From a virus (taxonomy: Duplodnaviria; Heunggongvirae; Uroviricota; Caudoviricetes), in IMG/VR virus record IMGVR_UViG_3300012943_000001, positions 103,743 through 167,742 of that record: DNA of 64,000 bases. The stretch is one strand, 5' to 3'. This document shows, piece after piece, positions 25,571 to 60,851 of this stretch. Below the pieces are notes generated by a model, which was given only the letters and a program-made list of their open reading frames with translations, did not search any database and had not been told where the DNA came from. A program made the position numbers and the translations under genes. Each line of letters begins with the position of its first letter. Position 1 is the stretch's first letter.

Positions 25571-26794
25571 ATGATTATCACTAGTCTCCTCGACCTCGAC
25601 CTGTATAAGCTGACGGTAGGCCAAGTCATCTTCAAAAACTTCCGCTTCGTCCGGGCGAAGTACCGCATGACGGTTCGCAATGGCAAGCAGATTAACTTCT
25701 GGCATGGAGACATCGCTCGCCAGATGGAAGTTGAGATTAAAGCTCTTGAAAACTTGAGTCTACAACCTGACGAGGCAGACTATCTTCGCAAGTTGGGTTT
25801 GGGATTCGAAGAGTCGTATCTACGTTTTCTTTCGAACAAGCCTATGGAAGGTTGCTTCGTTAGATACGTTCATCAAGAAAGCATAAAGTTTACAGACAAC
25901 GACTACGTTCCTGAAGTACATGGAGAATGGTGCAGAGCTATGCTTTACGAAATCTTCTGTCTTAGTATCGCGAATGAAATTTTCGCTAGGCAGTATTGCA
26001 GGTTCAATAATGTCAAATACGATTGGCTTACAGAGGCGGGAGAGGTTCGCCTTGCAAAGAAGATTGCATATCTTCAAGAACATAAAGCGGGAAACTACTG
26101 TAAACATCCGATGTCGATTTCGGAGTTCGGTACGCGTCGCCGGTTGAGTCATGCTTGGCAAGCTCATGTCGTCAAGGAACTCTATAGCAGCGGAGTAATC
26201 AATGCCACGAGTAACGTTTACTTCGGAAAGCTATTCGACATTCCTGTTCGCGGCACTTTCGGCCACGAGTTCACAATGGGTATGCAAGCCTTAACCCGCG
26301 TGCAAGACAGTCAGAAAGAAGCGTTGTGGCTTTGGCATAGAGAGTGGAATGGAAAGCTTTCACTTGCTTTAGACGATACGCTTGGCGATGCGAAGTTCGT
26401 CCAAGATTTTGATAAGGACTTAGCTATGGCTTATTCGGGCCTTCGTCACGATTCGGGCGAGCCAGAGGCGTGGACGGAAGACCGCATCACTATGTATCAT
26501 AGGCTCGACGTGAATCCAGAACAGAAGACTCTTTTGTACTCAGACGGGCTGGACGTTCATAAAGCGGTAGCACTACGCAACCTTGTGGGCTTACGAGCCA
26601 TTCCGAAGTTCGGTATCGGTACGAATTTTACCAACGATACGTTCTCGCCTGTCCCGCAGGTTGTCATGAAGATTGTTCATTGCAACGGTCAACATGTTGC
26701 AAAGCTTTCGAACAATCCCGCCAAGGCTTGCTGCGATGACCCTGAATATCTCCGCTACATCAAGCACATTTCGGGAGTGAAAGATTCAGCTTGA
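25571..26794 (+). CDS. pncB: nicotinate phosphoribosyltransferase
   Basis: N-term SLLDLDLYKLTVGQV typical of NAPRTase; 407 aa. Confidence 0.8.
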   Translation: MIITSLLDLDLYKLTVGQVIFKNFRFVRAKYRMTVRNGKQINFWHGDIARQMEVEIKALENLSLQPDEADYLRKLGLGFEESYLRFLSNKPMEGCFVRYVHQESIKFTDNDYVPEVHGEWCRAMLYEIFCLSIANEIFARQYCRFNNVKYDWLTEAGEVRLAKKIAYLQEHKAGNYCKHPMSISEFGTRRRLSHAWQAHVVKELYSSGVINATSNVYFGKLFDIPVRGTFGHEFTMGMQALTRVQDSQKEALWLWHREWNGKLSLALDDTLGDAKFVQDFDKDLAMAYSGLRHDSGEPEAWTEDRITMYHRLDVNPEQKTLLYSDGLDVHKAVALRNLVGLRAIPKFGIGTNFTNDTFSPVPQVVMKIVHCNGQHVAKLSNNPAKACCDDPEYLRYIKHISGVKDSA

Positions 26795-26822
26795 CTTTCC
26801 TAGAACGATTTTCATCCTCCTA
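26791..26822 (+). promoter_or_regulatory. conserved CTTGACTTTCC-type promoter upstream of nadE
   Basis: gcTTGACTttcctagaacgattttcatcc. Confidence 0.45.
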
Positions 26823-26826
26823 ACCC

Positions 26827-31342: not shown

Positions 31343-32680
31343 ATGTCCCTCCGCAACTCAGATTCAGAAGGCTTCGGCTCTTCTATCAAAGACAAGTTCA
31401 AGATTGGTGCAGGCATCTTCGCGGTGCTCATCGTACTCAGTCTTTTCTTCGGTGCCATTGGTAAGAACGATGACCAAAACTGGCAAGTCCTCCAATACCC
31501 GAACGGCAACGTCCAAGTCATCAACACTCCCGGTTACTACTTGAAGTGGTTCGGCTCCGTTACGACCTATCCTCGTAACTGGCAGGTCGAATACAACGCT
31601 CATGACGGAGCGGACTGGTCCACCAAAGTGACGTTTAATGATGGTGGCTGGGCTCATATGGATTCTATCATCCGTTTTGCCTCCCCATCTGACACTGACA
31701 AGCAGCGTGCATTCCATCGTTTGTTTGCCGGTAGCGAAAAGAATGTAGAGTCTGCTGTTTGGGCTCACTTGTCTGACGCTATGAAGTCCTCTGGACCAGT
31801 AATGTCCACGTCCGAACACCAATCTGCCCGCCGCTCTGAATTCAACGCACTCGTACAAGAGCAGCTTGATAAAGGTCTCTTCGAAATGAAGAAAGTTGAG
31901 AAGCAGCTTCTTGACCAGACCGACGAAAAGGGTAAGCCAATCACGGTCTACGCCACCGAAGTCCTCGTTGACAAGGAAGGTAAGTCCCTCGTTTCTAAAA
32001 CTTCTCCTCTTACAGATTTCGGCATCAAAATTACGCAGTTCTCTATTACGGATGTCCGCTATGACGAGCAGACCGTCAAGCAGTTCGTAACAAAGAAAGA
32101 AGCGTTCCTCGCCGCAGAAAACTCCAAAGCTCAACGCGAGAAGGAAGTTCAGGAACGTCTCATGGTTACCGAAAAGGGTCTTCGTGAGAAGGCTGAAGCT
32201 GAAGCCGCAGCTAACAAGCAAAAGGCCACAGAAGTTATCAATGCCCAACGTGAGAAAGAAGTCGCCGAACTCAACGCTAACCGTGAGAAGGTCGTCGCTG
32301 AAACCAACGCCGCTCGTGAATACGCCGTCGCCAAGCTCACTAAAGAGCAGGCTGAGGTTAAGGCAAATCAAGAGCTTGAAGTTGCCCGCATCGGTCGTCA
32401 AGCCGCTGAGGAAGACGCCAAGAAGCAGATTGTCCTCGCTCAGGCCAAGAAGGAAAGCATCGCCCTCGGTGGTGCAATTACAGAGCGTGACCGCGTGCTT
32501 GCCGAAATTAGCCGCGACCGCGACGTTCAGGTTGCAGCTCAGTTGTCCAAGATTGCTACACCTTCGACCATTATCAGCGGTGGTGGAGCAAATGGTGGTG
32601 GCGATACACAGTCCACTCTCATGAACCTCGTGCTTATGAAGAGCATGGGAGTTCTCCCAGAGACGCCAGCCAAGAAGTAA
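31343..32680 (+). CDS. SPFH/band-7 (prohibitin/HflK-like) membrane protein
   Basis: N-terminal TM, SPFH core, C-terminal Ala/Glu/Lys coiled-coil repeats (AQREKEV...). Confidence 0.75.
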   Translation: MSLRNSDSEGFGSSIKDKFKIGAGIFAVLIVLSLFFGAIGKNDDQNWQVLQYPNGNVQVINTPGYYLKWFGSVTTYPRNWQVEYNAHDGADWSTKVTFNDGGWAHMDSIIRFASPSDTDKQRAFHRLFAGSEKNVESAVWAHLSDAMKSSGPVMSTSEHQSARRSEFNALVQEQLDKGLFEMKKVEKQLLDQTDEKGKPITVYATEVLVDKEGKSLVSKTSPLTDFGIKITQFSITDVRYDEQTVKQFVTKKEAFLAAENSKAQREKEVQERLMVTEKGLREKAEAEAAANKQKATEVINAQREKEVAELNANREKVVAETNAAREYAVAKLTKEQAEVKANQELEVARIGRQAAEEDAKKQIVLAQAKKESIALGGAITERDRVLAEISRDRDVQVAAQLSKIATPSTIISGGGANGGGDTQSTLMNLVLMKSMGVLPETPAKK

Positions 32681-40807: not shown

Positions 40808-41169
40808 GTCCGATTAAACAAAAAATCGCAATCGCGGAAGCGTGTGGTTGGGCGTGGCTTATGTACAATGCACGTCCCGTTCTGTTTGACGCGGACTTTT
40901 GGGCCAAGCATCCAGAAACAAAGAAGCACCAAATCACCGCAGAAGAATTGGCGGACTCGTATCAATTAGAGATTGGGATGGGCGGTCTTCCCGACTATCT
41001 AAACGACTTAAACGCAATGCACGAGGCGGAGAAGTTTTTAACATCAACAGACCTAGGTTGGAAATATATTGAAGTTCTTAAGAAAGTGACTTTCGAATTG
41101 CCTTGGTGTGCGACGGCCCGTCAACGAGCAGAAGCATTCCTTAAAACACTCGACCTTTGGACATCGTGA
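40804..41169 (+). CDS. hypothetical protein
   Basis: 121 aa. Confidence 0.5.
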   Translation: MSPIKQKIAIAEACGWAWLMYNARPVLFDADFWAKHPETKKHQITAEELADSYQLEIGMGGLPDYLNDLNAMHEAEKFLTSTDLGWKYIEVLKKVTFELPWCATARQRAEAFLKTLDLWTS

Positions 41170-41843
41170 GATACGAAGACAAAACACTTGAATTTAGGCA
41201 CTTTCTAAAAACCAACCTTCCGGGTCATGAAGCACTCGTTGATTACGTACTTCTGAATCCGAAGTTTATGTTATGGAGCGGCTGTTCTCATAAAGACCGC
41301 CATCATTACGGTATTGGTGGACTTCAATATCATACGTGGGAAGTTGTTCACCTTTGTAATGTGAACGCCTACACTATGGACATAATATGTAAGGGTAAGA
41401 AGGAGATAAATAAAGTTGTACTTCTCCTCGCCGCTTTGTATCATGACGTAGGCAAGATGTGGGATTATGTACCCGTAAAACCTTCAAGGCCCTCGGAAGA
41501 CTCTCCTGTAAGAGAGGTTGATTTTCAAGGATTGCAAGACTACGCAAGAAATGGAGCGGCAGACTTTATTCAATGGAAAGGTGCCAGTCACAAACGTACT
41601 ATCCATCATATTTCCCGCTCTGGTGTCGAATGGACTAAAGCTGTAACTCAGACTGGCGTGGGCAAAGAGATTGAAGACGAGGTTCTTCATTGCATCCTTT
41701 CCCACCACGGCCAAAGAGAGTGGGGCTCACCAGTTGCACCAAAGAGTCGTGAAGCATGGATGCTATTCCTTTGTGACGGCATCAGTGCAAGAATGAACGA
41801 CGCGGATTCATTTGATATGAAGGGGCAGGTTAAAAACGTATAA
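41157..41843 (+). CDS. HD-domain phosphohydrolase
   Basis: H...LLAALYHDVGK HD motif. Confidence 0.65.
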   Translation: MDIVRYEDKTLEFRHFLKTNLPGHEALVDYVLLNPKFMLWSGCSHKDRHHYGIGGLQYHTWEVVHLCNVNAYTMDIICKGKKEINKVVLLLAALYHDVGKMWDYVPVKPSRPSEDSPVREVDFQGLQDYARNGAADFIQWKGASHKRTIHHISRSGVEWTKAVTQTGVGKEIEDEVLHCILSHHGQREWGSPVAPKSREAWMLFLCDGISARMNDADSFDMKGQVKNV

Positions 41844-42118
41844 TGGGCGTCCAATACGAAACCTTCATGGGTGGTTACACTCCGATATGTAACAACTGCG
41901 GGGTTTCTCTATGTTGGGATATCAGTCCAAATGATTACGAAGAAGATAAAGACTTCTGGGAACAGTGGACTTGCAAAGATTGTAATCCGAACTATCAAGG
42001 AGCCTTAAAACGTTGGAGAGTCGAAAATGTCAAACGAACTAGAAGCGGAAGCGGCAAGACTGAAGGTCATACAAGACAAGGACCAGAAATGGCGAAAAGG
42101 CCCAAAGATAACACGTAA
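41843..42118 (+). CDS. small zinc-ribbon protein
   Basis: CNNCG...CKDC; 3' end overlaps the next gene. Confidence 0.4.
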   Translation: MGVQYETFMGGYTPICNNCGVSLCWDISPNDYEEDKDFWEQWTCKDCNPNYQGALKRWRVENVKRTRSGSGKTEGHTRQGPEMAKRPKDNT

Positions 42119-42329
42119 AGATATAGACCTTGCAATTAAGAACGGAGGCGAATTAAGAATGCCTCCAGACGAATTCGAGCAAGTAGACAAGACAATTAAA
42201 TTTGGAAAGCACAAAGGCAAAACATATAGCTTCGTATACAAAAACGATTCAAGATGGTTCTATTGGGCTATGGACAACATCCAAGGGTTCAGAGCCAAAG
42301 CAGAGGCGGCAAAATATCAAAATGATTAA
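42027..42329 (+). CDS. small protein with an FGKHKGKTY motif
   Basis: Good RBS GGAGAG-8nt-ATG; shares a FG.[HY]KG.TY...W motif with 42806..42997. Confidence 0.45.
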   Translation: MSNELEAEAARLKVIQDKDQKWRKGPKITRKDIDLAIKNGGELRMPPDEFEQVDKTIKFGKHKGKTYSFVYKNDSRWFYWAMDNIQGFRAKAEAAKYQND

Positions 42330-42816
42330 GAAATTTAGAGTAAGAGACATGGCACGCAAGTGCTGGTTAGATACCACAGAAACGTCACTACACGCGTTTA
42401 CAGACTACTTCATAGACTTTAGTGGTCTTGTCAGGGCGACCGAAGGGGCTATAGGAGAGTCTTCTAAAATGGAGTATGCGAATTTAGACCATACAGATTA
42501 TGGAGTGCGTCCTATAGTCTTTACAAGAGAAGAGGAACGCTTCAAGGTCCAGCAATACATCGGAATGAAGGACAAGGACGGTAAGGAAATCTTCGAGGGT
42601 GATATTGTAGGAGGGTTTGGCCGCGAATTTGTAGTCGAATTTGGCATTGCCCGACGTACTATAGGTAGTGGTACGTCCGCTTACGAGATTGACATTCCCT
42701 GTTTCTATTTCCTAGATACATCTACAAGCGAGAAAGTCTTTCCTATATGCGAGACAGACTCCCGCCTTCACGACCTAGCCTCCTTAACTATTACTGGCAC
42801 TATATTTGATAAGTAA
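42322..42816 (+). CDS. YopX-like phage protein (second paralog)
   Basis: MIKKFRVRDMARK N-term; start at the internal ATG overlapping the upstream stop. Confidence 0.5.
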   Translation: MIKKFRVRDMARKCWLDTTETSLHAFTDYFIDFSGLVRATEGAIGESSKMEYANLDHTDYGVRPIVFTREEERFKVQQYIGMKDKDGKEIFEGDIVGGFGREFVVEFGIARRTIGSGTSAYEIDIPCFYFLDTSTSEKVFPICETDSRLHDLASLTITGTIFDK

Positions 42817-42997
42817 AATGGTACTTCTTATTGGCGACGAATCCAACGCGACGCCAGCTTCAGATAACAAACTAACATTCGGTTGCTATAAGGGACAAAC
42901 TTATCAGTGGCTTTACGAAAACGACGGGGAATATTGGACATGGTGTATGAAAAACGTGTCGTGGTTCAGAGATAAGGTAAACAAACTAGTGTGCTGA
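42806..42997 (+). CDS. small protein with an FGCYKGQTY motif
   Basis: Paralogous motif to 42027..42329. Confidence 0.4.
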   Translation: MISKMVLLIGDESNATPASDNKLTFGCYKGQTYQWLYENDGEYWTWCMKNVSWFRDKVNKLVC

Positions 42998-43005
42998 AAT
43001 TGGTC

Positions 43006-43038
43006 TTGACTTTCCCAAAACACCACCAACACTGACCG
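43006..43038 (+). promoter_or_regulatory. conserved CTTGACTTTCCCAAAAC-type promoter upstream of the RNA ligase gene
   Basis: tcTTGACTttcccaaaacaccaccaacactg. Confidence 0.45.
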
Positions 43039-43041
43039 CTT

Positions 43042-44154
43042 ATGAAAATCGTCCTCTCAGATATCGACCCAGAGTCTTTCATGGTTCATCCGCACGAGAT
43101 TGCGGGTGAGACCTGCTATCTGGTTCAGCCTATCCATATCGGTGCAAAGTGGACCAAATCCAACTTGCACCAACGGTCCTCCGTGTGGAACGCTCAGGGC
43201 GAACTCGTTTCCGCTTCCTTCAAGAAATTCTTCAATTGGGCAGAGCAGCCAGACCTTGCATACACTCCTTTCTCCCTGACGGCGAACGGTGGATGTGAGT
43301 TGATTGAGAAAATCGACGGTTCTACTCTTATCGTTTCGAGGTATAAGGGCCAGACTATCATCCGTACTCGTGGTACAACCGACGCCTCTAAACTCGACAA
43401 CGGTCATGAAATCGAGTGGTTGAAAGACAAGTATCCTCGTGCGTTCAAGTTCCCAGATAAAGATGGGAATGACTACGAGACCGCACCGTACTCATTGATT
43501 TATGAGTGGGTATCTCCAGAGAATAAAATCGTATTGAATTATGGTGAAGACCCAGACATTTATTTGACTGCGGTTATCAACCATGACACCTATACACTTT
43601 GGCCTCAAGACGAAGTAGATGTTCTCGCAACCCTTCTTCTAGTGAAACGTCCAGCTCGCTATAACTTCGCGTCCGTGGCAGAAATGCTTGCGGCTGTCGA
43701 AGACCTAAAGGGCAAGGAAGGTCTCTGCGTCTACTGTAACAAGGGTCAAGATATCCGTAAGGTTAAGTCCGCATGGTATCTCGCGTTGCACCGTATGAAG
43801 ACGGAGTTTGGTTCGTACGAGCGTGTAGTAGACTTCTACTTCACGATGAACAAGCCAACCTATCAGGAATACTACCAGTTCATTGTAGATAACTACGATT
43901 TCGAATTGGCAGAGCAGTGCCGTGGTCATATCTCAAAGGTATGCGACGGCATGAAAGAGGTTGCCGTTCTGATTGCGGCTATGACCGAAAAGGTTGAACC
44001 ACTCCGTACGAAGTCCCGCAAGGATGCAGCCGCAGTAATTCTTCAAGCTTATGGCTTGACAAATCGCTCAGGCATGGCATTCTCCATCCTCGACAACAAG
44101 CCACTCAAGGTAGACGACTACAAAAAACTCCTGTACCAAGTAACGAAGGACTAA
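43042..44154 (+). CDS. ATP-dependent RNA/DNA ligase-family nucleotidyltransferase (Rnl-like)
   Basis: Motif I EKIDGS, motif IV EGLCVY, motif V RKVKS. Confidence 0.6.
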   Translation: MKIVLSDIDPESFMVHPHEIAGETCYLVQPIHIGAKWTKSNLHQRSSVWNAQGELVSASFKKFFNWAEQPDLAYTPFSLTANGGCELIEKIDGSTLIVSRYKGQTIIRTRGTTDASKLDNGHEIEWLKDKYPRAFKFPDKDGNDYETAPYSLIYEWVSPENKIVLNYGEDPDIYLTAVINHDTYTLWPQDEVDVLATLLLVKRPARYNFASVAEMLAAVEDLKGKEGLCVYCNKGQDIRKVKSAWYLALHRMKTEFGSYERVVDFYFTMNKPTYQEYYQFIVDNYDFELAEQCRGHISKVCDGMKEVAVLIAAMTEKVEPLRTKSRKDAAAVILQAYGLTNRSGMAFSILDNKPLKVDDYKKLLYQVTKD

Positions 44155-44155
44155 A

Positions 44156-44479
44156 ATGATTCCCGACAAGCTCCTTAATCTCAGCTATACCAAGCACGCG
44201 ATTAGGGAAGCTTGTTGCGAACGTTTTGGTAGTATAGAGCATCGTCCCAAGAATTTTATAAAGGTGGGTTGCAAGGCGGTGACCGAAAGTGCAGAGAAGC
44301 CTAACGTTATCAAAGCTACCTATATCTATGACGACTGGCGAGATGTCATTTTAGTCATAGACACCATAACTAAAACCGTAATTACAAACTACCTCAAACC
44401 CGCCCAAAACAAAGGCGTATTCAAAGGTCGATTTCGAATTCAGCCAAAGCATGAGCTACAAACTTTTTCTCGACGATGA
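44156..44479 (+). CDS. hypothetical protein
   Basis: 107 aa. Confidence 0.45.
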   Translation: MIPDKLLNLSYTKHAIREACCERFGSIEHRPKNFIKVGCKAVTESAEKPNVIKATYIYDDWRDVILVIDTITKTVITNYLKPAQNKGVFKGRFRIQPKHELQTFSRR

Positions 44480-44813
44480 ACGCATTCCTCAAAAAGTTTT
44501 TTGGGTTCCGCTTCCACTAGGCCCTTGGGTAATTGTCCGTTCTTACAACGAGTTCGTAGAGCACATCACAAAGAACGGTCTACCTGAGTTCATCTCTTTT
44601 GACCACGATTTATCCTTCGAAGACCAGAACGTTGGGGGAAAATCCCCAGACGAATACAAGGAAAAGACCGGGATGCACTGTGCTCACTGGCTGGTTAACT
44701 TTTGCCTTGACAATAACCTCAAGTGTCCTAACTTCACGGTCCACAGTATGAATCCAGTTGGTGCCAGAAACATCCGCTGCCTCCTCCAAGACTTTATCAT
44801 CTCACAAGAATGA
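44451..44813 (+). CDS. hypothetical protein
   Basis: 120 aa. Confidence 0.45.
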   Translation: MSYKLFLDDERIPQKVFWVPLPLGPWVIVRSYNEFVEHITKNGLPEFISFDHDLSFEDQNVGGKSPDEYKEKTGMHCAHWLVNFCLDNNLKCPNFTVHSMNPVGARNIRCLLQDFIISQE

Positions 44814-45262
44814 CGCTTTCAAATCTAGCTTTCAAACTCGCCGTGTTCTACCACGAGGGACAGACGCGTGAAAACGGTGTACCGTATATCACTCACCCTA
44901 TCGCCGTGGCAGAGATTGCCGTCGAATCAGTTGGCAACCTCTATTCTGAGGAAGTCATCGACATCATCAAAGCAATCGCTGACCTCCACGACGTTTTAGA
45001 AGACTGCGAAAAGAAGGGTGCGAGTGTCCAGTCTCTCAAGGAAAGCTTTAAGGGCTTCGCCAGAGCTGACGACGTAATCGACGCCGTAGTTTGCCTCACG
45101 AAAGTTGCGGGCGAATCATATTTCGTATATCTACAACGTGTCAAAGCTAACGAGTTTGCCAGAATCGTCAAGCTCGCAGACCTCCAACATAACCTCGGCG
45201 ACCTGCCTCCGGGCAAACGCCGAGACAAGTATCTCCTCGCTCAGTATTTCCTCCTCAACTAA
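44810..45262 (+). CDS. small alarmone hydrolase (RelA/SpoT HD domain, Mesh1-like)
   Basis: FYHEGQTRENGVPYITHP and LHDVLEDC match (p)ppGpp hydrolase HD motifs; 150 aa. Confidence 0.7.
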   Translation: MTLSNLAFKLAVFYHEGQTRENGVPYITHPIAVAEIAVESVGNLYSEEVIDIIKAIADLHDVLEDCEKKGASVQSLKESFKGFARADDVIDAVVCLTKVAGESYFVYLQRVKANEFARIVKLADLQHNLGDLPPGKRRDKYLLAQYFLLN

Positions 45263-45263
45263 A

Positions 45264-45938
45264 ATGAAGATTCCAAAGTTCGATACAGTTAAGACGAAGA
45301 TTTTCTTCGGAAGCGACTTCCACTTGTCGCACAAGCAGCCATTCATTTGGCAGGCACGTGGCTTCAATTCGATTGAGGAGCACGCTAATTTCATCATTGA
45401 CGAGACGAACAAGGTTGTTGGTGAAGACGACATCCTGTTTTACTTGGGCGATTTCTCGCTCAACTCGACGCCTGACGAGACGCGTGCATACTTCCGTCGA
45501 TTCAAGACGAAGCACATCTATTACATTTGGGGCAACCACGAGTCCAACACTTGGGCTATCTATCAGGACGCAATCCGGGAGAAGTTCAAGGGTCTTCCAT
45601 TCGTGCCTCCAGAGGTTTATCATTTCACATGGGAGAACGTGACGTTCTTTGGTAAGAGCCTTATGGTTAATATCAATGGACAAATCGTAATCCTATCGCA
45701 CTTCGCCCATTACATTTGGGATACGATGCAGCACGGTGCGTGGAATATTTGCGGCCATAGTCATGGCAACTGTGCGGAGCTTGTACCAGAGGCGGCATTT
45801 GGTAAGGTTCTAGACGTTGGCGTGGATGTCGCCGTAAAGCTCAACGCAAGTCCTGTCGTATCGTTTGAAGAGGTGGAGGAAATCCTCTACAAGAAGGCGA
45901 TTCAAGTTCGAGACCATCACAATAAGCAGACAACATGA
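45264..45938 (+). CDS. calcineurin-like metallophosphoesterase (polynucleotide 3'-phosphatase candidate)
   Basis: GDFHL, GDF, GNHE motifs; start at the internal ATG immediately after the upstream stop. Confidence 0.7.
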   Translation: MKIPKFDTVKTKIFFGSDFHLSHKQPFIWQARGFNSIEEHANFIIDETNKVVGEDDILFYLGDFSLNSTPDETRAYFRRFKTKHIYYIWGNHESNTWAIYQDAIREKFKGLPFVPPEVYHFTWENVTFFGKSLMVNINGQIVILSHFAHYIWDTMQHGAWNICGHSHGNCAELVPEAAFGKVLDVGVDVAVKLNASPVVSFEEVEEILYKKAIQVRDHHNKQTT

Positions 45939-46414
45939 TTTCAGAGTTCCATATGTTAGTTGGTATCGTTGGCTCTGGCAAGAGCACGTTATGCAAGAAG
46001 TTACTTGTAGATAAGCAAGCGACTCTTGTCAGCTCTGACGATATACGCCTAGAGGTTTGTGGCAACATGACAGACCAATCCAAGAATGGCTTAATCTTTA
46101 CAAAGATTATTCCTGAGAGGATTAAGGCTGGACTGAAGGCGGGCAACGTTGTGTACGACGCAACGAACTATAACCGCAAGTCTCGCCGTGAGTGGTTGAC
46201 TCTAGCCAAGTCTCTAGGTGCGAGGACGGTAGTTCATCAAATGCTAACCCCATTCGATGAGTGCCGTCGTCGTAATGCCGCACGCCTAGAGCGTGTTGTG
46301 CCTGACTTCGTAATCGACAAGATGGTTGCGGGTTGGGAAGCTCCAGACATGAACATCGAGAAAATCGACGAAATCATCCTAGTATCTGAGAGTGGCGTTG
46401 CGAAAGTTGCTTGA
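45935..46414 (+). CDS. pnk: polynucleotide 5'-kinase domain protein (T4 Pnk kinase-like)
   Basis: P-loop GIVGSGKST; VVYDATNYNRKSRREW resembles the T4 Pnk DxTN...R segment. Confidence 0.7.
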   Translation: MISEFHMLVGIVGSGKSTLCKKLLVDKQATLVSSDDIRLEVCGNMTDQSKNGLIFTKIIPERIKAGLKAGNVVYDATNYNRKSRREWLTLAKSLGARTVVHQMLTPFDECRRRNAARLERVVPDFVIDKMVAGWEAPDMNIEKIDEIILVSESGVAKVA

Positions 46415-46442
46415 CTTTCCCGCCATTCTCGGTACTCTTAAC
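46411..46442 (+). promoter_or_regulatory. conserved CTTGACTTTCC-type promoter
   Basis: gcTTGACTttcccgccattctcggTACTCTtaa. Confidence 0.45.
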
Positions 46443-46465
46443 GTTTTACCTAATCAAATCTTACT

Positions 46466-46933
46466 ATGTCCAAAATCAATCTCGCCAAAGCCCTCAAAGT
46501 CAAAAATTCCCTTATCAGCGAAATCAATCGCTCCAAGGCTGTCTTTGCTCGTGAAAACTCCCGTAAGGAAGGCTCCACGTCCAAGGTTGACCGCGAACAG
46601 CTCTGGGACCAAATCTCCGTCAAAACCCAGCAGTTGGTCAAGCTGAAGGGGCAAATCGCCGCCGCGAACATTGCCATCTATCCAACGCTTGCCCTTATGG
46701 AGGAGGCTAAGTCTGCAATCACGTTCCTACAGCAGCTCAATACTACAGACGGAAAGGTCGTTGAGCATAGCCGCTATGGTACGGGTCCAAACCTTGAGAC
46801 GAACTTCTCCGCCTTCATCACGCAAGATGGGGTGGATAAGAGGGTCAACGAGTTTCAGAAGATTATCGAAGACGCACAAGATGCGGTGGACGCCTATAAC
46901 GCAACCACATTCATCGAAGTCTCATTCGTCTAA
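46466..46933 (+). CDS. hypothetical protein
   Basis: 155 aa after the promoter at 46411. Confidence 0.5.
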   Translation: MSKINLAKALKVKNSLISEINRSKAVFARENSRKEGSTSKVDREQLWDQISVKTQQLVKLKGQIAAANIAIYPTLALMEEAKSAITFLQQLNTTDGKVVEHSRYGTGPNLETNFSAFITQDGVDKRVNEFQKIIEDAQDAVDAYNATTFIEVSFV

Positions 46934-47151
46934 CACTTTGGGCCGCTGGTTCGGCGTCTAACAGGCACGGGAGTATTTTAATGACGAAAGTCATTGGAAA
47001 TCTATCTATAACGATAATGATAAGGAGTAAAGGCTTCGGCCCTAATAAGGTTCAACGCTCATGAACTCAAAAGTTATCAATTAAAGATTAAGAATCAAAA
47101 CTCTGTTTCCCTCACGTTTGTTATTCGCCGGATTAGCGGTTCATTTATTTT

Positions 47152-47304
47152 ATGATAAGATTCGCCATCGCGTTCTTATTGGGAGCGGCAGTCGCACTTT
47201 GGTTCCCCTTGTTTATCAAGGCGGTCCTCTGCCTCATTGGGTACGTAATCGTTGCGTCCTTAGCTACTCTCCTCTTCTTGGCTATCGTGGGTAGCAAGGC
47301 TTGA
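47152..47304 (+). CDS. small hydrophobic peptide (~50 aa, two TM)
   Basis: Manual ORF MIRFAIAFLLGAAVALWFPLF...; not in the ORF track (<60 aa). Confidence 0.35.
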   Translation: MIRFAIAFLLGAAVALWFPLFIKAVLCLIGYVIVASLATLLFLAIVGSKA

Positions 47305-47332
47305 CTTTACTGAAACGGCTACTAGAATGAAT
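47301..47332 (+). promoter_or_regulatory. conserved CTTGACTTTACTGAAACG-type promoter (-10 TAGAAT)
   Basis: gcTTGACTttactgaaacggctacTAGAATgaa. Confidence 0.55.
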
Positions 47333-47355
47333 TTCATGATTAACTCCCAACCCTA

Positions 47356-47649
47356 ATGGCTATTGTCAAAACAACCCGCTATTACCTGAATGTTTTTGGA
47401 AGCATTCAGAGAGACTTCAAGACTACAGCGTCCGAAGGCTCCAACAATAGAGACGACGTATTCGAATATACATTCCCAAACGACGAACTATTCTTTCAGC
47501 ATTTTTATCGACTCAATATCAAAACCGCTCAGGGCAAACTTCTAAAGGGTAAAACCTTGGTGGGGGTCTATACAAGAAGGGGTCTGGAAAAGAAAGACCG
47601 CCCTCGCCCCCGAATGAACAGCCAAAAATTCAGAGAACGCGACGAATGA
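47356..47649 (+). CDS. hypothetical protein
   Basis: 97 aa after the promoter at 47301. Confidence 0.45.
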   Translation: MAIVKTTRYYLNVFGSIQRDFKTTASEGSNNRDDVFEYTFPNDELFFQHFYRLNIKTAQGKLLKGKTLVGVYTRRGLEKKDRPRPRMNSQKFRERDE

Positions 47650-47858
47650 AAAAAGCATTTACATTAGTGGAAATCATGGTCGTCGTTTGTATCATAGGGG
47701 TTGTAGCCGCTATGGCAATTCCCGCCTTTCAAAAGCTCAAAGAGAGTAAAGCGAATGCAGATAAACGCAGGTCTCCACACAGAGTCGAACAAGTACAATC
47801 CTATACTCCTCCCGAGGAAATCATAATCAACGGTTATAAATATCGCCTAGTAAGGTAA
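47646..47858 (+). CDS. type IV pilin-like (prepilin N-terminal methylation motif) small protein
   Basis: KKAFTLVEIMVVVCIIGVVAAMAIP is a canonical class III signal / pilin N-terminus. Confidence 0.5.
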   Translation: MKKAFTLVEIMVVVCIIGVVAAMAIPAFQKLKESKANADKRRSPHRVEQVQSYTPPEEIIINGYKYRLVR

Positions 47859-47860
47859 CA

Positions 47861-48889
47861 ATGGCAGTGGCAAGAAAATTAGCGTCCATCCAAAAAATTC
47901 TAGACATACTTCCCCATGCAAACGCGGACACGTTAGAGATTGCCCGCGTCTTGGGTTGGAAGGTTTGCGTCAAGAAGGGCGAGTTCAAAGTAGGAGACTA
48001 CTGTGTCTACATGGAGATTGACTCTATGTTGCCGCAGAAACCTGAGTTTGAATTCCTTCGTTCCAAAGGATTCAGGATTAAAACCGTCAGGCTCCGTGGA
48101 GAAGTGTCTCAGGGCATCGCATTCCCACTATCTATCCTTGATGGATATAAGGTTCACGACCAGCATCAGGAGATACCTTACTTAGAAGATTTGGATGTCA
48201 CTGAGCTTATTGGCGTCGTCAAGTACGAGCCCGCAATCCACTTCGCTATTGGCGGAGAGATTAAGGGTCATTTCCCAGAGTTTTTGAAGAAGACGGACGA
48301 GACCCGCATCCAAGCCTTTCCTCGTCTCCTAGACCGCTACAAGGGCGAACGCTTCTACGTTACAGAGAAGTTGGACGGCTCTTCCATGACCGTATATTTC
48401 AAAGACGGTATGTTTGGTATTTGCAGTCGTAACTACGAACTTAGAGAGACTGAAGGTAACGCTCTATGGGCAACCGCAAAGAGGCTCCACCTACCCGAGA
48501 AACTTACGGCTTTTGGTCGCAATATTGCGATTCAGGGTGAGCTTATCGGTCCGGGCATCCAAGGTAACAAATACAAGGTCAAAGAACATCAGTTCCGTCC
48601 GTTCAACGCTATCAACATCAATGAGGCGAAACGTATTGGAGCTGTCGAACTGTTCTCTTTGTGCTCTGCACTAGACCTAGAGCCCGTTCCTGTAATCGAC
48701 TTCTGGTTCGTTCTTAACCATACTGTAGACGATATAGTGTCGTACGCAGAGGGTAAGAGTGCTTTGAATTCAAACACGGAAAGAGAGGGTGTCGTCATTC
48801 GTTACATCGAAGAGAAGTACGACGAAGACATTGGAGACTTGAGCTTCAAAGTCATCAGCCCTAACTTCCTGCTTAAATCAGACGAGTAA
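47861..48889 (+). CDS. RNA ligase, DRB0094/Rnl5 family
   Basis: N-terminal OB LASIQKI...ADTLEIARVLGWKVCVKKGEFKVGDYCVYMEIDS; motif I EKLDGSS. Confidence 0.75.
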   Translation: MAVARKLASIQKILDILPHANADTLEIARVLGWKVCVKKGEFKVGDYCVYMEIDSMLPQKPEFEFLRSKGFRIKTVRLRGEVSQGIAFPLSILDGYKVHDQHQEIPYLEDLDVTELIGVVKYEPAIHFAIGGEIKGHFPEFLKKTDETRIQAFPRLLDRYKGERFYVTEKLDGSSMTVYFKDGMFGICSRNYELRETEGNALWATAKRLHLPEKLTAFGRNIAIQGELIGPGIQGNKYKVKEHQFRPFNAININEAKRIGAVELFSLCSALDLEPVPVIDFWFVLNHTVDDIVSYAEGKSALNSNTEREGVVIRYIEEKYDEDIGDLSFKVISPNFLLKSDE

Positions 48890-56956: not shown

Positions 56957-57087
56957 GGGGAGTTAGTTAAAAACTAATCATCCACTTCGACATTTCTCTG
57001 GCAACAGTAGCTATGAAGAGGATTACATCGGAAAAACAAATGCCTGTAAAGCGTTAATAGGAGGTTCGAATCCTCCACTCCCCACCA
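56957..57087 (+). tRNA. elongated tRNA-like gene (~131 nt) with an internal insertion
   Basis: GGGGAGT...(approx 70-nt insert)...GGAGGTTCGAATCCTCC ACTCCCC A CCA; perfect 7-bp acceptor. Confidence 0.35.
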
Positions 57088-57442: not shown

Positions 57443-57448
57443 GTTTAT

Positions 57449-57563
57449 GGGCGTCTAGTGTTGAATCCGTAACTCGTACGGAAGTTGAAATACAAGGAAG
57501 CACATCGCGTAGTTGAAGAACGATGACCGCGAAGGTACGGGTTCAAATCCCGAACGTCCACCA
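57449..57563 (+). tRNA. elongated tRNA-like gene (~115 nt)
   Basis: GGGCGTC...CGTAC[~55 nt]GTACG...GGGTTCAAATCCCG AACGTCC A CCA. Confidence 0.3.
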
Positions 57564-58635: not shown

Positions 58636-58712
58636 GGCCGGATGACGGAATTGGCATACGTATTGGTCTAAGAAGCCAAGTTTTGTGGGTTCGACTCCCA
58701 CTTCGGCTACCA
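58636..58712 (+). tRNA. tRNA, anticodon read as AAG (uncertain)
   Basis: Stem TTGGT/GCCAA, loop CTAAGAA; TTCGACT; ...TTCGGCTACCA. Confidence 0.4.
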
Positions 58713-58717
58713 CTTTT

Positions 58718-58809
58718 GGGAGTGTAATGTAATGTAGCATCGCACGTTTTATAAACGTGGTGCAGTAGATAACTGCCGAGTATGGGTTCAAGTCCCTTCG
58801 CTCCTACCA
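58718..58809 (+). tRNA. type II tRNA with anticodon read as TAT (unusual)
   Basis: Stem CACGT/ACGTG, loop TTTATAA; variable hairpin GCAGT-AGATA-ACTGC; TTCAAGT; ACCA. Confidence 0.4.
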
Positions 58810-58810
58810 T

Positions 58811-58953
58811 GAGAGTGAGGTGTAATGGTTGCACGTTGACGATAGCAGGCGAAAATATGAGTGAAGCTGGCTAATAACCAACCGCTCCTCAAAGCATAGC
58901 TGTAAGTCTTGAAACATGTCAAAGGAATGGGTCCGAATCCCACGCTCTCTCCA
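58811..58953 (+). tRNA. elongated tRNA-like gene (~143 nt)
   Basis: GAGAGTG...(approx 80-nt insert)...TGGGTCCGAATCCCA CGCTCTC T CCA. Confidence 0.3.
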
Positions 58954-59047
58954 ATTTTGTGAGGGTAGGATAGGTTGTTGCAAATGATAATGTCTTTAGG
59001 TAACTTGCCGCGTAAAGAGTCCTATCTCGAATCACAATCAATTTTAT

Positions 59048-59122
59048 GGCGATATCTTCTAATGGCTAGGAAGGCTGGTTCTCAACCAGATAATCGGGGT
59101 TCGATTCCCCGTATCGCTACCA
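59048..59122 (+). tRNA. tRNA-Glu(CTC)-like
   Basis: GGCGATA...loop TTCTCAA (4-bp stem)...TTCGATT...TATCGCTACCA. Confidence 0.45.
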
Positions 59123-59337
59123 ATTTATGGCGAAGTGCGAGAAAGCTTTAAGTCGCGGTTAAAGTGCAGTGCTTAATAAGCCACTTACGTCACCAATTTA
59201 TAAATACACTCTAGTATCAAATTTCCAGACAGCATAACGAGCGGTTCGACTCCGCCCGAGCATCCCTAAGAAGATGCCGAGGGAACGCTGGAGAACATTT
59301 CTAACTTGAAAAATAGTTAGAGACGGATATAATTCGG

Positions 59338-59721
59338 ATGAAACAAAAGATTTTGAAACTCCTATCCGAAGGAAAGAGTCAGAAGGAAGTGGTAAGACTG
59401 TTGGGTTGCTCATCGGCGACGGTCTGGTATCATTCCTCAGATAAAGCGAAAGCAATAGTTCTACGGAACAACGCAAAGAACAAAACCGACTCTAAGAGAA
59501 GATTGAAAGAAGAGTTCGGAGGAAAGTGTATGTGTTGTGGATACAACAAAAGCTTCAGAGCGTTACACTTTCATCATAAAGACCCGTCTAAAAAGGACGA
59601 CGATATCAATAGCCTTGTAAGTAGAGGTCAGATTACACAAGCACGAGAAGAAGCAAAGAAATGCGTTCTTGTCTGTGCAAACTGCCACGCGGAAATCCAC
59701 GAAGGTATCCGCACCATATAA
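59338..59721 (+). CDS. HNH homing-type endonuclease (paralog of 55840..56391)
   Basis: CMCCGYNKSFRALHFHHKDP...CANCHAEIH. Confidence 0.7.
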   Translation: MKQKILKLLSEGKSQKEVVRLLGCSSATVWYHSSDKAKAIVLRNNAKNKTDSKRRLKEEFGGKCMCCGYNKSFRALHFHHKDPSKKDDDINSLVSRGQITQAREEAKKCVLVCANCHAEIHEGIRTI

Positions 59722-59864
59722 TTTCAGTAGTTACGTAGAGACTTTCATCGTCTATTAAACGAGTGTTTGTGAGGTTCGAATCCCACTCGCCCCACCATTT
59801 ATGGGGCGATACGCAAATGGTAAAGCGGCTAAAATCGTCTCTGCAATTTTTCTCTGAAAACTAA

Positions 59865-59940
59865 GCTGTAGAAGTTCAAAAGGTTGAACGACTCATTGGT
59901 AATGAGTAGGCAGCGGGTTCGATTCCCGCCTATAGCTCCA
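59865..59940 (+). tRNA. tRNA-Thr(GGT)
   Basis: GCTGTAG...GTTC/GAAC D-stem...stem ACTCA/TGAGT, loop TTGGTAA...TTCGATT...CTATAGCTCCA. Confidence 0.7.
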
Positions 59941-59988
59941 CTTTCAACTTGAAGATTACGCCCCTTTGGCGTATAATCTTTAAGACAT

Positions 59989-60064
59989 GCACCAGTATCA
60001 TAGCGGCTAATGAGCTACTTTGCCAAAGTAGATATCGCGGGTTCGAATCCCGCCTGATGCACCA
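59989..60064 (+). tRNA. tRNA-Gly(GCC)
   Basis: Stem CTACT/AGTAG, loop TTGCCAA; TTCGAAT; ...CTGATGCACCA. Confidence 0.65.
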
Positions 60065-60774: not shown

Positions 60775-60851
60775 GCAGGTTCTAGGGATGCTGGCTTCCC
60801 GTTTAGGCTCATAACCTTTATGTCGTGGTTCAATTCCATATCCTGCTTCCA
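60775..60851 (+). tRNA. tRNA-Met/Ile2(CAT)
   Basis: Loop CTCATAA; TTCAATT; ...TCCTGCTTCCA. Confidence 0.55.

What the first reader, a model, noticed from the sequence alone, without database searches (positions are those of the whole stretch)
59722..59812. Orphan tRNA 3' half abutting a complementary 5' start (possible HNH-disrupted or permuted tRNA)
Directly after the HNH gene stop there is a T-arm plus acceptor 3' strand plus CCA (gaGGTTCGAATCCcacTCGCCCCACCA) with no 5' partner upstream. Five nucleotides later a new tRNA-like 5' end begins with GGGGCGA, the exact complement of TCGCCCC. It continues with a D-arm (CGC-AAATGGTAAA-GCG) but has no 3' half before tRNA-Thr. The geometry fits either a tRNA gene split by homing-endonuclease insertion or a circularly permuted arrangement (3' half upstream of the 5' half). 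Another orphan T-arm-like fragment (GAGCGGTTCGACTCCGCCC) lies just upstream of the same HNH gene at about 59240.
Basis: seen in the sequence. Interest (0 to 1): 0.65.

Follow-up and report, generated by a model that had tools for sequence, protein, structure and literature searches.

The report
Circularly permuted tRNA-like RNA gene
The two "orphan" tRNA halves next to the HNH gene appear to form one compact gene for a tRNA-shaped RNA whose parts are in rotated order, an architecture known from bacterial Y RNAs (YrlA), here inside a phage tRNA array without the usual Ro60 protein-binding signature.

Summary
At 59769-59797 there is a T arm, an acceptor 3' strand and ACCA. Five bases later (59803) come the exactly complementary acceptor 5' strand and a canonical D arm. 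Neither half has a partner in normal tRNA order.

The halves are not loose fragments. Window 59722-59859 folds as one unit. A two-part stem made of the sequence after the HNH stop and the sequence before tRNA-Thr encloses an anticodon-like hairpin, the T arm, a closed 7-bp acceptor hairpin and the D arm. This order matches the tRNA-like domain of YrlA-type Y RNAs.

The internal junction (ACCA-TTTAT-G) is the array's standard tRNA-tRNA junction. I therefore infer RNase P cutting that leaves a nicked, two-piece tRNA mimic.

The HNH gene abuts the element and does not split it. No 5' exon, group I intron, tmRNA tag or splicing motif was found.

About twenty elements of the same geometry occur in other phage tRNA arrays, some beside Ro-like genes. 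The window element fails the YrlA membership tests: no Ro60 motif, no Ro-like gene in the window, no covariance-model hit. No close relatives exist to prove selection.

Verdict: a new variant of a known kind. A rearrangement relic remains a serious rival.

The parts
59722..59730 (+). Outer stem, 5' strand: TTTCAG, bulged T, then AG. It starts directly after the HNH stop codon.
   Evidence: In the MFE and centroid fold it pairs with 59852-59859. Coordinates checked.
59735..59742 (+). Inner closing helix, 5' strand: GTAGAGAC.
   Evidence: Forms 8 contiguous pairs (7 Watson-Crick and 1 G-U) with 59837-59844. The duplex of both stems is -17.6 kcal/mol, reached by 46 of 3000 shuffles.
59748..59762 (+). 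V, or anticodon-like, hairpin: TCGT-CTATTAA-ACGA. The 7-nt loop has U33-like and A37-like bases and starts with CUAU (the YUAY motif).
   Evidence: It is in canonical register, with a 5-6 nt variable loop before the T arm. ARAGORN reads the assembled 1-26 plus 27-76 sequence as tRNA(att). YUAY at the start of the V loop is a YrlA feature (PMC4201824).
59769..59786 (+). T arm: GTG[A]GG-TTCGAAT-CCCAC. G53, T54, T55, C56, A58 and C61 are all present. The 5' strand has one bulged base.
   Evidence: The same bulged T arm occurs in dozens of ordinary phage tRNA genes.
59787..59797 (+). Acceptor 3' strand TCGCCCC, discriminator A and encoded CCA.
   Evidence: The 25-mer spanning the T arm and acceptor is identical in L001/L095 and in the 85-nt tRNAs of L002-L005.
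59798..59802 (+). Loop or spacer TTTAT that closes the acceptor hairpin. It is identical to the standard 5' leader of tRNAs in this array. The inferred RNase P site lies between 59802 and 59803.
   Evidence: TTTAT precedes 14 of 42 tRNA genes in the window. The cleavage itself is inferred, not shown.
59803..59828 (+). Acceptor 5' strand GGGGCGA, U8, A9, D arm CGC-AAATGGTAAA-GCG (A14, G18, G19 and A21 present) and G26.
   Evidence: A15 can pair with U48 (T59768) as a Levitt pair, read directly from the sequence.
59837..59844 (+). Inner closing helix, 3' strand: GTCTCTGC.
59852..59859 (+). Outer stem, 3' strand: CT plus CTGAAA. Five bases later tRNA-Thr begins, at 59865.
59338..59721 (+). Free-standing HTH-HNH endonuclease-like ORF (127 aa). 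It is adjacent to the RNA element and not inside it.
   Evidence: Pfam HTH_23 plus a weak HNH hit. tblastn hits to annotated phage HNH endonucleases. A promoter-like site matching 11 of 12 positions lies at 59306-59333.
59222..59294 (+). Second, degenerate element: a 7-bp helix TTTCCAG/CTGGAGA encloses a CAGCA tract, a 4-bp T arm (59241-59255) and a 5-bp hairpin GCATC...GATGC. It has no D arm.
   Evidence: Centroid fold and coordinates. Model R2 gives only 8.7 bits, so the evidence is weak.

Best explanation
Window 59722-59859 is one gene for a tRNA-derived, circularly permuted tRNA mimic. It probably arose from a tandem tRNA duplicate.

The transcript comes from the array or from the promoter-like site before the HNH gene. 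It folds into a normal tRNA core. The T arm and D arm can dock, and all conserved elbow bases are present. The order of parts is 27-76 followed by 1-26.

The acceptor stem is closed by the array's ordinary inter-tRNA spacer. The free ends lie at the D-arm/anticodon-arm hinge, where an 8-bp helix plus an 8-bp helix hold them together.

Shown: the sequence, the fold, the complementarity, and the recurrence of this geometry in other phages.

Inferred:
- RNase P cuts before G59803, as at every other junction of the array.
- Exonucleases trim back to CCA59797.
- The two pieces stay paired as a nicked tRNA-like particle. M. smegmatis YrlA and two-piece tmRNA behave this way.
- The particle acts as a tRNA mimic, for example as a platform or decoy for tRNA-binding or RNA-repair proteins, possibly a Ro-like protein encoded outside the window. 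It is probably not a decoding tRNA.
For: - The MFE and centroid folds give exactly this structure, with z = -3.1.
- It is the only 7-of-7 acceptor complement in the window.
- Leader-trailer duplex p is about 0.015.
- U8, A14, A15:U48, G18G19, A21, G53, T54, T55, C56, A58 and C61 are all intact.
- The two segments add up to exactly one tRNA, and ARAGORN calls the assembled sequence a tRNA.
- The spacer TTTAT is the array's standard RNase P leader, with U at -1, G+1:C72 and A73-CCA.
- The same T-arm, closed-acceptor, D-arm geometry inside a closing helix occurs about 20 times in 93 IMG/VR phage loci, uncalled by ARAGORN.
- One of these (L001/L095) has an identical T arm and acceptor 3' strand, a C-to-U wobble change in the 5' strand, and a different closing helix.
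- In a subfamily, 19 of 23 pairs covary.
- That subfamily lies beside phage Ro-like genes.
- L081 carries three copies with a Ro60-type helix.
- Rfam YrlA gives sub-threshold hits to several of these elements.
- Acceptor loops start with NCC(A) in 11 of 21 elements.
- Precedent: YrlA has the order V, T, AS, D. M. smegmatis YrlA, with a 7-bp acceptor stem, is cut by RNase P and receives CCA (PMC4201824).
- RNA-repair genes lie just upstream of the array. This fits the jumbo-phage repair context, in which a TROVE protein works with a tRNA-like partner (PMC7824862).
Against: - No close relative of this phage or of this element was found, so selection on this copy is not shown.
- Neither Rfam YrlA nor my own model of the Ro-like-associated subfamily places it above tandem-tRNA-junction noise (18 bits).
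- There is no GNCGAA/CGAA Ro60 motif and no TROVE or DUF2828 gene in the 64 kb.
- The neighbourhood holds other defective tRNA-like pieces (59129-59195 and 59222-59294), so local wreckage is plausible.
- The closing-stem statistics are moderate, and the features were chosen after looking at the sequence.
- A 7-nt repeat ATCGTCT (59747 and 59834) points to a duplication origin. That origin is equally compatible with a relic.
Confidence: 0.55

Rival explanations
1. Non-functional relic. Two tandem copies of one tRNA gene were damaged by rearrangements around the mobile HNH cassette. Copy 1 lost positions 1-26 and copy 2 lost positions 27-76. The complementarity of the acceptor strands is simply inherited.
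For: - Tandem paralogues are common in this array.
- The junction is an ordinary tRNA-tRNA spacer.
- The repeat ATCGTCT (59747 and 59834) looks like a remnant of copy 2's anticodon stem.
- Other defective tRNA-like pieces lie next door.
- HNH genes sit in tRNA arrays of T5, and a GIY-YIG homing endonuclease gene (segB) sits in that of T4.
- No relatives demonstrate conservation.
Against: - Two independent losses would have to leave exactly complementary parts.
- The flanks would have to form an 8-bp plus 8-bp stem by chance (p about 0.015).
- Every conserved core base is intact.
- The same architecture, with the break at the D/anticodon hinge, recurs in unrelated phages with covariation.
- Orphan T arms in the other loci almost always belong to structured elements rather than debris.
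Confidence: 0.27
2. A working permuted or split tRNA. After RNase P cutting, the two pieces form a decoding tRNA that uses the CUAUUAA loop (anticodon AUU) or the alternative AGAC-UUUCAUC-GUCU arm (anticodon UCA). The phage RNA ligases might seal the pieces.
For: - The anticodon-like arm is in canonical register, with U33 and A37.
- The encoded CCA and a full 7-bp acceptor stem are present.
- Two RNA ligases, a kinase and a phosphoesterase are encoded at 43-49 kb.
- L082 7293-7389 is a permuted element with a perfect CAU anticodon arm and its ends at the variable-arm position.
Against: - Anticodon AUU with A34 would be a very unusual decoder (my own knowledge).
- The array already has tRNA-Asn(GUU).
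- The ORFs read well with standard stop codons, so a suppressor is not needed.
- The extra stem would project from the 26/27 hinge. To my knowledge no mature tRNA has an arm there.
- The assembly test with ARAGORN is not discriminating.
- No splicing motif is present.
Confidence: 0.08
3. A tRNA gene interrupted by the HNH gene, either as an intron ORF or as a direct insertion. The 5' exon would lie upstream of the HNH gene.
For: The HNH ORF lies immediately upstream of the 3' part. A T-arm-like piece lies upstream of it.
Against: - No complementary 5' strand lies within 260 nt upstream or anywhere suitable in the array.
- There is no group I or II intron hit at E<=1.
- The upstream piece is a T arm, not a 5' half.
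- The matching 5' half lies downstream.
Confidence: 0.02
4. A two-piece (permuted) tmRNA.
For: The T-arm, acceptor, CCA, loop, acceptor geometry gives weak Rfam hits to cyano_tmRNA (9.6 bits) and tmRNA_permuted (8.6 bits).
Against: - Those scores are far below the gathering thresholds of 70 and 47 bits.
- ARAGORN finds no tmRNA.
- Only 55 nt follow the acceptor 5' strand, and most of them are paired.
- There is no tag reading frame and no pseudoknot.
Confidence: 0.01

Closest known systems
YrlA-type bacterial and phage Y RNAs (Rfam RF02553; Chen et al. 2014, PMC4201824)
   Same: - The module order is the same: a 5'/3' closing stem, then a V hairpin, T arm, closed acceptor-like stem-loop and D arm.
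- tRNA tertiary-contact bases are kept.
- YUAY begins the V loop.
- M. smegmatis YrlA has a 7-bp acceptor stem, is cut by RNase P and receives CCA.
- Phage examples are known.
   Different: - There is no GNCGAAN0-1G/CGAA Ro60 motif.
- No Ro60, TROVE or Ro-like gene lies within 4 kb, or anywhere in the 64 kb.
- There is no Rfam hit.
- The element sits in a tRNA array, with an encoded CCA and the array's own RNase P leader as its loop.
Framed tRNA-like RNAs beside phage Ro-like (DUF2828-vWA) genes in IMG/VR loci
   Same: Both have a closed acceptor hairpin between a T arm and a D arm inside a closing helix. The loop is often NCC(A). The window's nearest sequence relative, L001, carries the CAGCAA motif of this family.
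   Different: The window lacks the frame TTTTAGG...TTCAGCAAA...CCTGTTG. It scores only 18 bits with model R2, which is junction-noise level.
Two-piece (circularly permuted) tmRNA of alpha- and beta-proteobacteria and cyanobacteria
   Same: The gene order is permuted: T arm, acceptor 3' strand and CCA lie upstream of the acceptor 5' strand. The pieces are matured by cutting the linker and stay paired.
   Different: The window element has no tag ORF and no pseudoknots. It has a real D arm and an anticodon-like hairpin, and it is about 138 nt in total.
Circularly permuted tRNA genes of Cyanidioschyzon merolae, some green algae and archaea, and split tRNAs of Nanoarchaeum (from my own knowledge)
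   Same: The 3' part lies upstream of the 5' part with a short linker. Leader and trailer pair with each other.
   Different: Those genes need a bulge-helix-bulge motif, a splicing endonuclease and a ligase, and they yield ordinary tRNAs. No such motif is present here, and the break lies at 26/27.
Stable tRNA-like RNAs of T4 (species 1, rnaC) and T5 (RNA1, RNA2)
   Same: They are non-tRNA stable RNAs encoded inside phage tRNA clusters beside homing-endonuclease genes, and their function is unknown.
   Different: They have the normal topology, with the 5' and 3' ends in the acceptor stem. The window has three of that kind elsewhere, but the finding is the permuted kind.

Membership tests
YrlA / Y RNA-like (RF02553) | tRNA-like domain in the order V, T arm, closed acceptor stem-loop, D arm, enclosed by a stem formed from the 5' and 3' ends | tested here: met
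   MFE and centroid structure. The order of parts follows PMC4201824.
YrlA / Y RNA-like (RF02553) | Conserved tRNA tertiary-contact bases, and YUAY at the start of the V loop | tested here: met
   U8, A14, A15:U48, G18G19, A21, G53, T54, T55, C56, A58 and C61 are present, and the V loop is CUAUUAA.
YrlA / Y RNA-like (RF02553) | GNCGAAN0-1G (CGAA) Ro60-binding motif near the 5' end or in the stem bulge | tested here: not met
   The stem strands are TTTCAGTAGTTACGTAGAGAC and GTCTCTGCAATTTTTCTCTGAAA. The only CGAA is in the T loop.
YrlA / Y RNA-like (RF02553) | Encoded within about 4 kb of a Ro60, TROVE or Ro-like gene on the same strand | tested here: not met
   Pfam scans of the 10 largest ORFs and 20 further ORFs show no TROVE or DUF2828 domain. 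tblastn with two phage Ro-like proteins finds nothing in the window. The rest of the genome was not available.
YrlA / Y RNA-like (RF02553) | Covariance-model score at or above the gathering score (69 bits) | tested here: not met
   No YrlA hit even at E<=10 on 59700-59870. Related IMG/VR elements reach 24-34 bits.
   The motif is absent from the array. The R2 score is 18.0 bits, within the range of tandem-tRNA junctions at 18-32 bits.
Circularly permuted tRNA gene (algal/archaeal type) | The 3' part lies upstream of the 5' part, with a short linker, and together they form a full cloverleaf | tested here: met
   Segments 27-76 and 1-26 lie in that order. ARAGORN calls the assembled sequence a tRNA, although that test is permissive.
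Circularly permuted tRNA gene (algal/archaeal type) | Bulge-helix-bulge motif at the leader-trailer junction | tested here: not met
   The junction is an 8-bp helix flanked by 5-nt and 9-nt single strands. There is no pair of 3-nt bulges 4 bp apart.
Circularly permuted tRNA gene (algal/archaeal type) | Circular intermediate and a ligated mature tRNA | not testable with these tools
   This needs RNA data. The phage does encode RNA ligases.
Two-piece tmRNA | Tag reading frame with a resume codon, pseudoknots, and a family model hit | tested here: not met
   Rfam gives 8.6 and 9.6 bits against gathering scores of 47 and 70. ARAGORN finds no tmRNA. There is no room for an ORF.
tRNA gene interrupted by an HNH-carrying intron or insertion | A matching 5' exon upstream of the ORF, and an intron core | tested here: not met
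   There is no complementary acceptor strand upstream and no intron family hit.
Canonical tRNA gene | Contiguous cloverleaf recognised by tRNA finders | tested here: not met
   It is not called by ARAGORN or by the Rfam tRNA model.

The most novel reading that the evidence does not exclude
The element is a genuinely functional circularly permuted, two-piece tRNA of a bacteriophage. RNase P opens the acceptor loop. The leader-trailer stem holds the pieces together, or the phage's own kinase, phosphatase and RNA ligases seal them. The product is aminoacylated and used in translation or in a tRNA-dependent reaction. This would be the first permuted tRNA gene outside eukaryotes and archaea. It would belong to a wider set in phage arrays, such as L082 7293-7389 with its CAU anticodon arm.
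Probability: 0.08. Interest if true: 0.9.

Novelty: new variant of a known kind. Interest (0 to 1): 0.55.

Why it matters
tRNA finders are blind to rotated tRNA-like genes, so these elements go unannotated in phage tRNA arrays. If this element is expressed, phages would be making YrlA-style tRNA mimics without the recognisable Ro60 module. They would make them directly from their tRNA gene arrays, using the host's RNase P.

The element lies next to homing endonucleases and downstream of an RNA-repair gene set. That would widen the known repertoire of tRNA mimicry in the phage-host conflict over the translation apparatus. It would also give a tractable natural example of a two-piece tRNA-shaped RNA.

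The survey further suggests that such elements, and Ro-like-associated framed RNAs, are common in uncultured phages. That could be tested with a dedicated covariance-model search.

Tried and rejected
- ARAGORN with introns and lowered thresholds on 58700-60000 gave only implausible calls.
- I looked for close relatives and found none beyond L001. The searches were: DNA against INPHARED; neighbouring proteins in IMG/VR; an exact look-up of the HNH protein; a junction pattern in JGI metagenomes, which returned only the L001 contig again as L095; and a D-arm pattern in IMG/VR, which hit only ordinary or odd tRNAs.
- Assembling the permuted halves at all possible breakpoints and asking ARAGORN proved non-discriminating. 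Almost every closed-acceptor element yields some 'tRNA'.
- Using normal tRNA-tRNA junctions as a control for leader-trailer pairing failed, because GC-rich tRNA stems pair well with anything. Window-position controls failed for the same reason.
- MAFFT alignments of the heterogeneous elements were poor. I therefore seeded a model with two near-identical members and re-aligned the rest with Infernal.
- T4 and T5 stable RNAs were checked as possible homologues. They have the normal topology, not the permuted one.
- The flanking 7-mers TAGAGAC (59318 and 59736) were considered as an HNH target duplication and rejected. The word occurs 12 times in the window.
- A PDB sequence search and NCBIfam gave nothing for the DUF2828 protein.

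Full report
**Setting**

The window is part of a novel, probably large, phage. It has no close DNA relative among 50,697 deposited phage records. It encodes DnaE, ClpB, spermidine synthase, a PARP-like protein and NAD-salvage enzymes. From 52.6 to 63.9 kb it carries a + strand array of 42 ARAGORN tRNA genes. Rfam's tRNA model adds six regions that ARAGORN missed, four above its threshold and two weak. Three HNH-type ORFs are interspersed.

**Checking the observation**

- The HNH ORF is 59338-59721.
- T arm GTG[A]GG-TTCGAAT-CCCAC lies at 59769-59786.
- Acceptor 3' strand TCGCCCC lies at 59787-59793, followed by ACCA (59794-59797) and TTTAT (59798-59802).
- GGGGCGA lies at 59803-59809, followed by U8 and A9.
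- D arm CGC-AAATGGTAAA-GCG lies at 59812-59827, followed by G26 (59828).
- tRNA-Thr starts at 59865.

No tRNA is called at the finding by ARAGORN or Rfam. No complementary 5' strand exists within 260 nt upstream. The only other GGGGCGA on this strand in the array lies inside tRNA-Pro. The second T-arm-like fragment is at 59239-59257.

Among the roughly 50 T arms of the window, this is the only one followed within 3-15 nt by a 7-of-7 complement of its own acceptor strand.

**Anatomy**

Folding 59716-59864 gives, as both MFE and centroid, a single multi-branched structure (-39.3 kcal/mol, z = -3.1, 2 of 200 shuffles as good). From the outside in, it has these parts.
- An outer stem: TTTCAG(T)AG at 59722-59730 pairs with CT-CTGAAA at 59852-59859.
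- An inner 8-bp helix: GTAGAGAC at 59735-59742 pairs with GTCTCTGC at 59837-59844.
- Inside the helix, in order: a hairpin TCGT-CTATTAA-ACGA (59748-59762), the T arm, the acceptor hairpin closed by ACCATTTAT, and the D arm.

In tRNA numbering, the upstream part is exactly 27-76. It has an anticodon-like arm with U33 and A37, a 5-nt variable loop, the T arm, the acceptor 3' strand, A73 and CCA. The downstream part is exactly 1-26. U8, A14, G18G19, A21, G53, T54, T55, C56, A58, C61 and an A15:U48 Levitt pair are all present.

Joined in silico, ARAGORN calls the two parts a 77-78-nt tRNA(att). That test later proved permissive.

The duplex formed by the two flanks (-17.6 kcal/mol) is matched by 46 of 3000 shuffles. 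This is supportive but not overwhelming.

**What it is not**

- It is not a tRNA split by the HNH gene. There is no 5' half upstream and no 3' half downstream. There is no group I or II intron signal. The HNH ORF stops one base before the outer stem and has its own promoter-like site at 59306-59333.
- It is not a tmRNA. ARAGORN finds none. Rfam's permuted tmRNA models match only the T-arm-plus-hairpin part, at 8.6 and 9.6 bits. There is no room for a tag.
- There is no bulge-helix-bulge motif of the kind that defines spliced permuted tRNAs.

**The internal junction**

TTTAT immediately precedes the first base of 14 of the 42 tRNA genes in this array. The loop closing the acceptor hairpin, ACCA-TTTAT-G, is therefore an ordinary tRNA-tRNA junction: U at -1, G1:C72 and A73-CCA. 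If the region is transcribed, RNase P cleavage at 59802/59803 and 3' trimming to CCA are the default expectation. This step is inferred, not shown. The two products would stay together through the 7-bp acceptor stem, the D-T loop contacts and the 8-bp plus 8-bp stem.

**Related sequences**

The exact 25-mer (T arm plus acceptor 3' strand plus CCA) occurs in five IMG/VR contigs.
- Four of them carry it in an ordinary 85-nt tRNA.
- The fifth (L001) comes from a 332-kb contig. The same sequence was recovered as L095 from a 391-kb metagenome contig. It has the same rotated geometry: GTG[T]GG-TTCGAAT-CCCAC-TCGCCCC-ACCA-TCTTAT-GGGGTGA, then a D arm. There is a C-to-U change that keeps pairing as G-U. 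A different closing helix, AGGGTGT/GCACCCT, sits at the equivalent place (on its own p = 0.09).

A scan of 93 phage loci fetched through a T-arm pattern found 45 T arms followed by a complementary 5' strand. About 20 of these lie outside any ARAGORN tRNA. Most of those fold as closing helix, optional hairpin, T arm, closed acceptor, D arm. The break at the D/anticodon hinge and the 7-nt anticodon-like loop of the V hairpin recur in these elements. The acceptor loops begin with NCC(A) in 11 of 21 elements, against about 6% expected. This suggests that the CCA end matters.

**Link to Y RNAs**

The order V, T, closed acceptor stem, D is that of YrlA-type Y RNAs. At least one member, from M. smegmatis with a 7-bp acceptor stem, is cut by RNase P and receives CCA in vivo (PMC4201824).

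- One IMG/VR locus (L081) has three such elements whose closing stems carry a Ro60-type helix, GGGCCGA/CTTGCCC. One of them exceeds the Rfam threshold of a nematode sRNA family. From my own knowledge, that family consists of Y RNA homologues.
- Rfam YrlA gives sub-threshold hits of 24-34 bits to several elements.
- A large subfamily shares a frame: TTTTAGG...TTCAGCAAA...CCTGTTG. A model seeded from two members retrieved many more. On nine members, 96.5% of cells pair and 19 of 23 pairs show double changes (0 of 500 shuffles), against about 43% paired in slid controls. The caveat is that the alignment was fitted to the model.
- These framed elements lie next to ORFs of about 490 aa carrying DUF2828 and DUF7788, with weak vWA_Ro60 similarity. 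Homologues occur in 702 phage records and are annotated 'Ro-like RNA binding protein' in mycobacteriophages.
- Phage Ro60-Y RNA pairs are documented in the literature (PMC12135203). So are TROVE proteins with tRNA-like partners in jumbo-phage RNA repair (PMC7824862).

**Membership**

The window element works like, and looks like, the tRNA-like module of YrlA. It does not pass the family's defining tests.
- It has no GNCGAA/CGAA motif.
- No TROVE or DUF2828 gene occurs in 64 kb.
- Rfam YrlA gives no hit.
- Model R2 gives only 18 bits, the same range as plain tandem-tRNA junctions.
- The frame motif is absent.

I therefore file it as a new variant of a known kind, not as a YrlA member.

**Mechanism and rivals**

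My best reading (0.55) is a tRNA-derived, circularly permuted tRNA mimic. It probably arose from a tandem duplicate and is matured by RNase P into a nicked, two-piece, tRNA-shaped particle with a CCA end. It would act as a mimic or platform rather than a decoder.

The main rival (0.27) is a recent relic of rearrangement around the HNH cassette. Two observations make this plausible.
- The immediate neighbourhood contains other defective pieces: a 67-nt T-arm-less tRNA-like gene at 59129-59195, and a degenerate T-arm element at 59222-59294.
- No relatives are available to show selection.

Three observations count against the relic: the exact partition into 27-76 plus 1-26, the flank complementarity, and the intact core.

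A truly decoding two-piece tRNA (0.08) is not excluded. The anticodon-like arm is in register. Two RNA ligases, a kinase and a phosphoesterase are encoded at 43-49 kb. However, an AUU anticodon and an extra stem at the 26/27 hinge are hard to reconcile with decoding.

**Limits**

- There are no expression data and no orthologues.
- The structural features were selected after looking at the sequence.
- E-values from the quickly calibrated models are rough.
- Only 64 kb of the genome was visible.

Noticed in passing
window 56957-57087, 57448-57563, 58811-58953: Three tRNA-like genes of about 115-143 nt with normal topology: acceptor stem, D-like arm, T arm and CCA, with a 60-85 nt insert in place of the anticodon arm. 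tRNA finders miss them. They resemble T4 species 1 RNA and T5 RNA1/RNA2, which are stable RNAs of unknown function. The element at 58811-58953 contains GCAGGCGAAAATATGAGTGAAGCTGGCTAATAA, which looks superficially like a tmRNA tag.
   Followed up: partly
window 60775-60851: A 77-nt tRNA-Met-like gene with anticodon loop CTCATAA. It has one mismatch in the acceptor stem and an odd D arm. Both ARAGORN and Rfam missed it. No other tRNA-Met was called in the array.
   Followed up: no
window 59129-59195: A 67-nt tRNA-like gene framed by the standard TTTAT leader and a CCA end. It has an acceptor stem (6 of 7 pairs), a D arm and an anticodon-like hairpin, but no T arm.
   Followed up: partly
window 59222-59294: A degenerate element upstream of the HNH gene. 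A 7-bp helix TTTCCAG/CTGGAGA encloses a CAGCA tract, a 4-bp T arm and a 5-bp hairpin, with no D arm.
   Followed up: partly
window 41157-48889: An RNA-repair gene set just upstream of the tRNA array: HD-domain proteins (41157-41843 and 44810-45262), an Rnl1-type RNA ligase (43042-44154), a metallophosphoesterase (45105-45938), a P-loop AAA_33 kinase (45935-46414), and a second RNA ligase with an OB fold (47861-48889).
   Followed up: partly
window 6096-7583, 15463-16866, 25571-28545, 31343-32680: Auxiliary metabolism and conflict genes: spermidine synthase, a WGR-PARP protein, NAPRTase with a glutamine-dependent NAD synthase, and an SPFH/Band-7 protein.
   Followed up: no
L012, L015, L023, L028, L029/L055, L040, L042, L058, L063, L065, L067 (for example L028 5670-5767, L065 982-1081): A widespread RNA family, often in tandem, with the frame TTTTAGGNNNN-N-TTCAGCAAA...NNNNCCTGTTG. 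The cargo varies: a permuted tRNA-like core, a tRNA body without an acceptor stem (L015 2771-2879), or only small hairpins (L063). In L012, L028 and L065 it lies beside DUF2828-DUF7788 'Ro-like RNA binding protein' genes. No Rfam family reaches its threshold on these elements. It may be the Y RNA partner of the phage Ro-like proteins.
   Followed up: partly
L082 7293-7389: A permuted tRNA-like element with a complete, canonical anticodon arm (TCAAA-TTCATAA-TTTGA, anticodon CAU) directly after the D arm. Its ends are clamped by an 8-bp helix, AGGTTACT/AGTAACCT, exactly where a long variable arm would sit. It is the best candidate seen for a genuinely functional permuted tRNA in a phage.
   Followed up: partly
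L081 4518-4651, about 7266-7400, about 7730-7860: Three Y RNA-like elements with a Ro60-type helix (GGGCCGA/CTTGCCC) in one phage tRNA array, near a class II aminoacyl-tRNA synthetase gene. One exceeds the Rfam threshold for nematode sRNA family RF01656.
   Followed up: partly
L095 1-4732: The 391-kb contig that carries the window element's nearest relative encodes an EF-Tu homologue and a class I aminoacyl-tRNA synthetase within a few kb of it.
   Followed up: no
L002 4627-4711, L003, L004, L005: An 85-nt tRNA with a long variable arm and anticodon loop CTTTTAA. It shares its T arm and acceptor 3' strand (25 of 25 bases) with the window element, so it may represent the ancestral type.
   Followed up: no
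many loci (for example L008, L013, L024): The T arm GTGNGG-TTCGAAT-CCCAC pairs only if one base of the 5' strand bulges out. It occurs in dozens of otherwise normal phage tRNA-Met(CAU) genes.
   Followed up: no
window 58954-59047: A hairpin of about 90 nt (GTGAGGGTAGGATAGG...CCTATCTCGAATCAC) between a tRNA-like gene and tRNA-Glu. Nothing in Rfam matches it.
   Followed up: no
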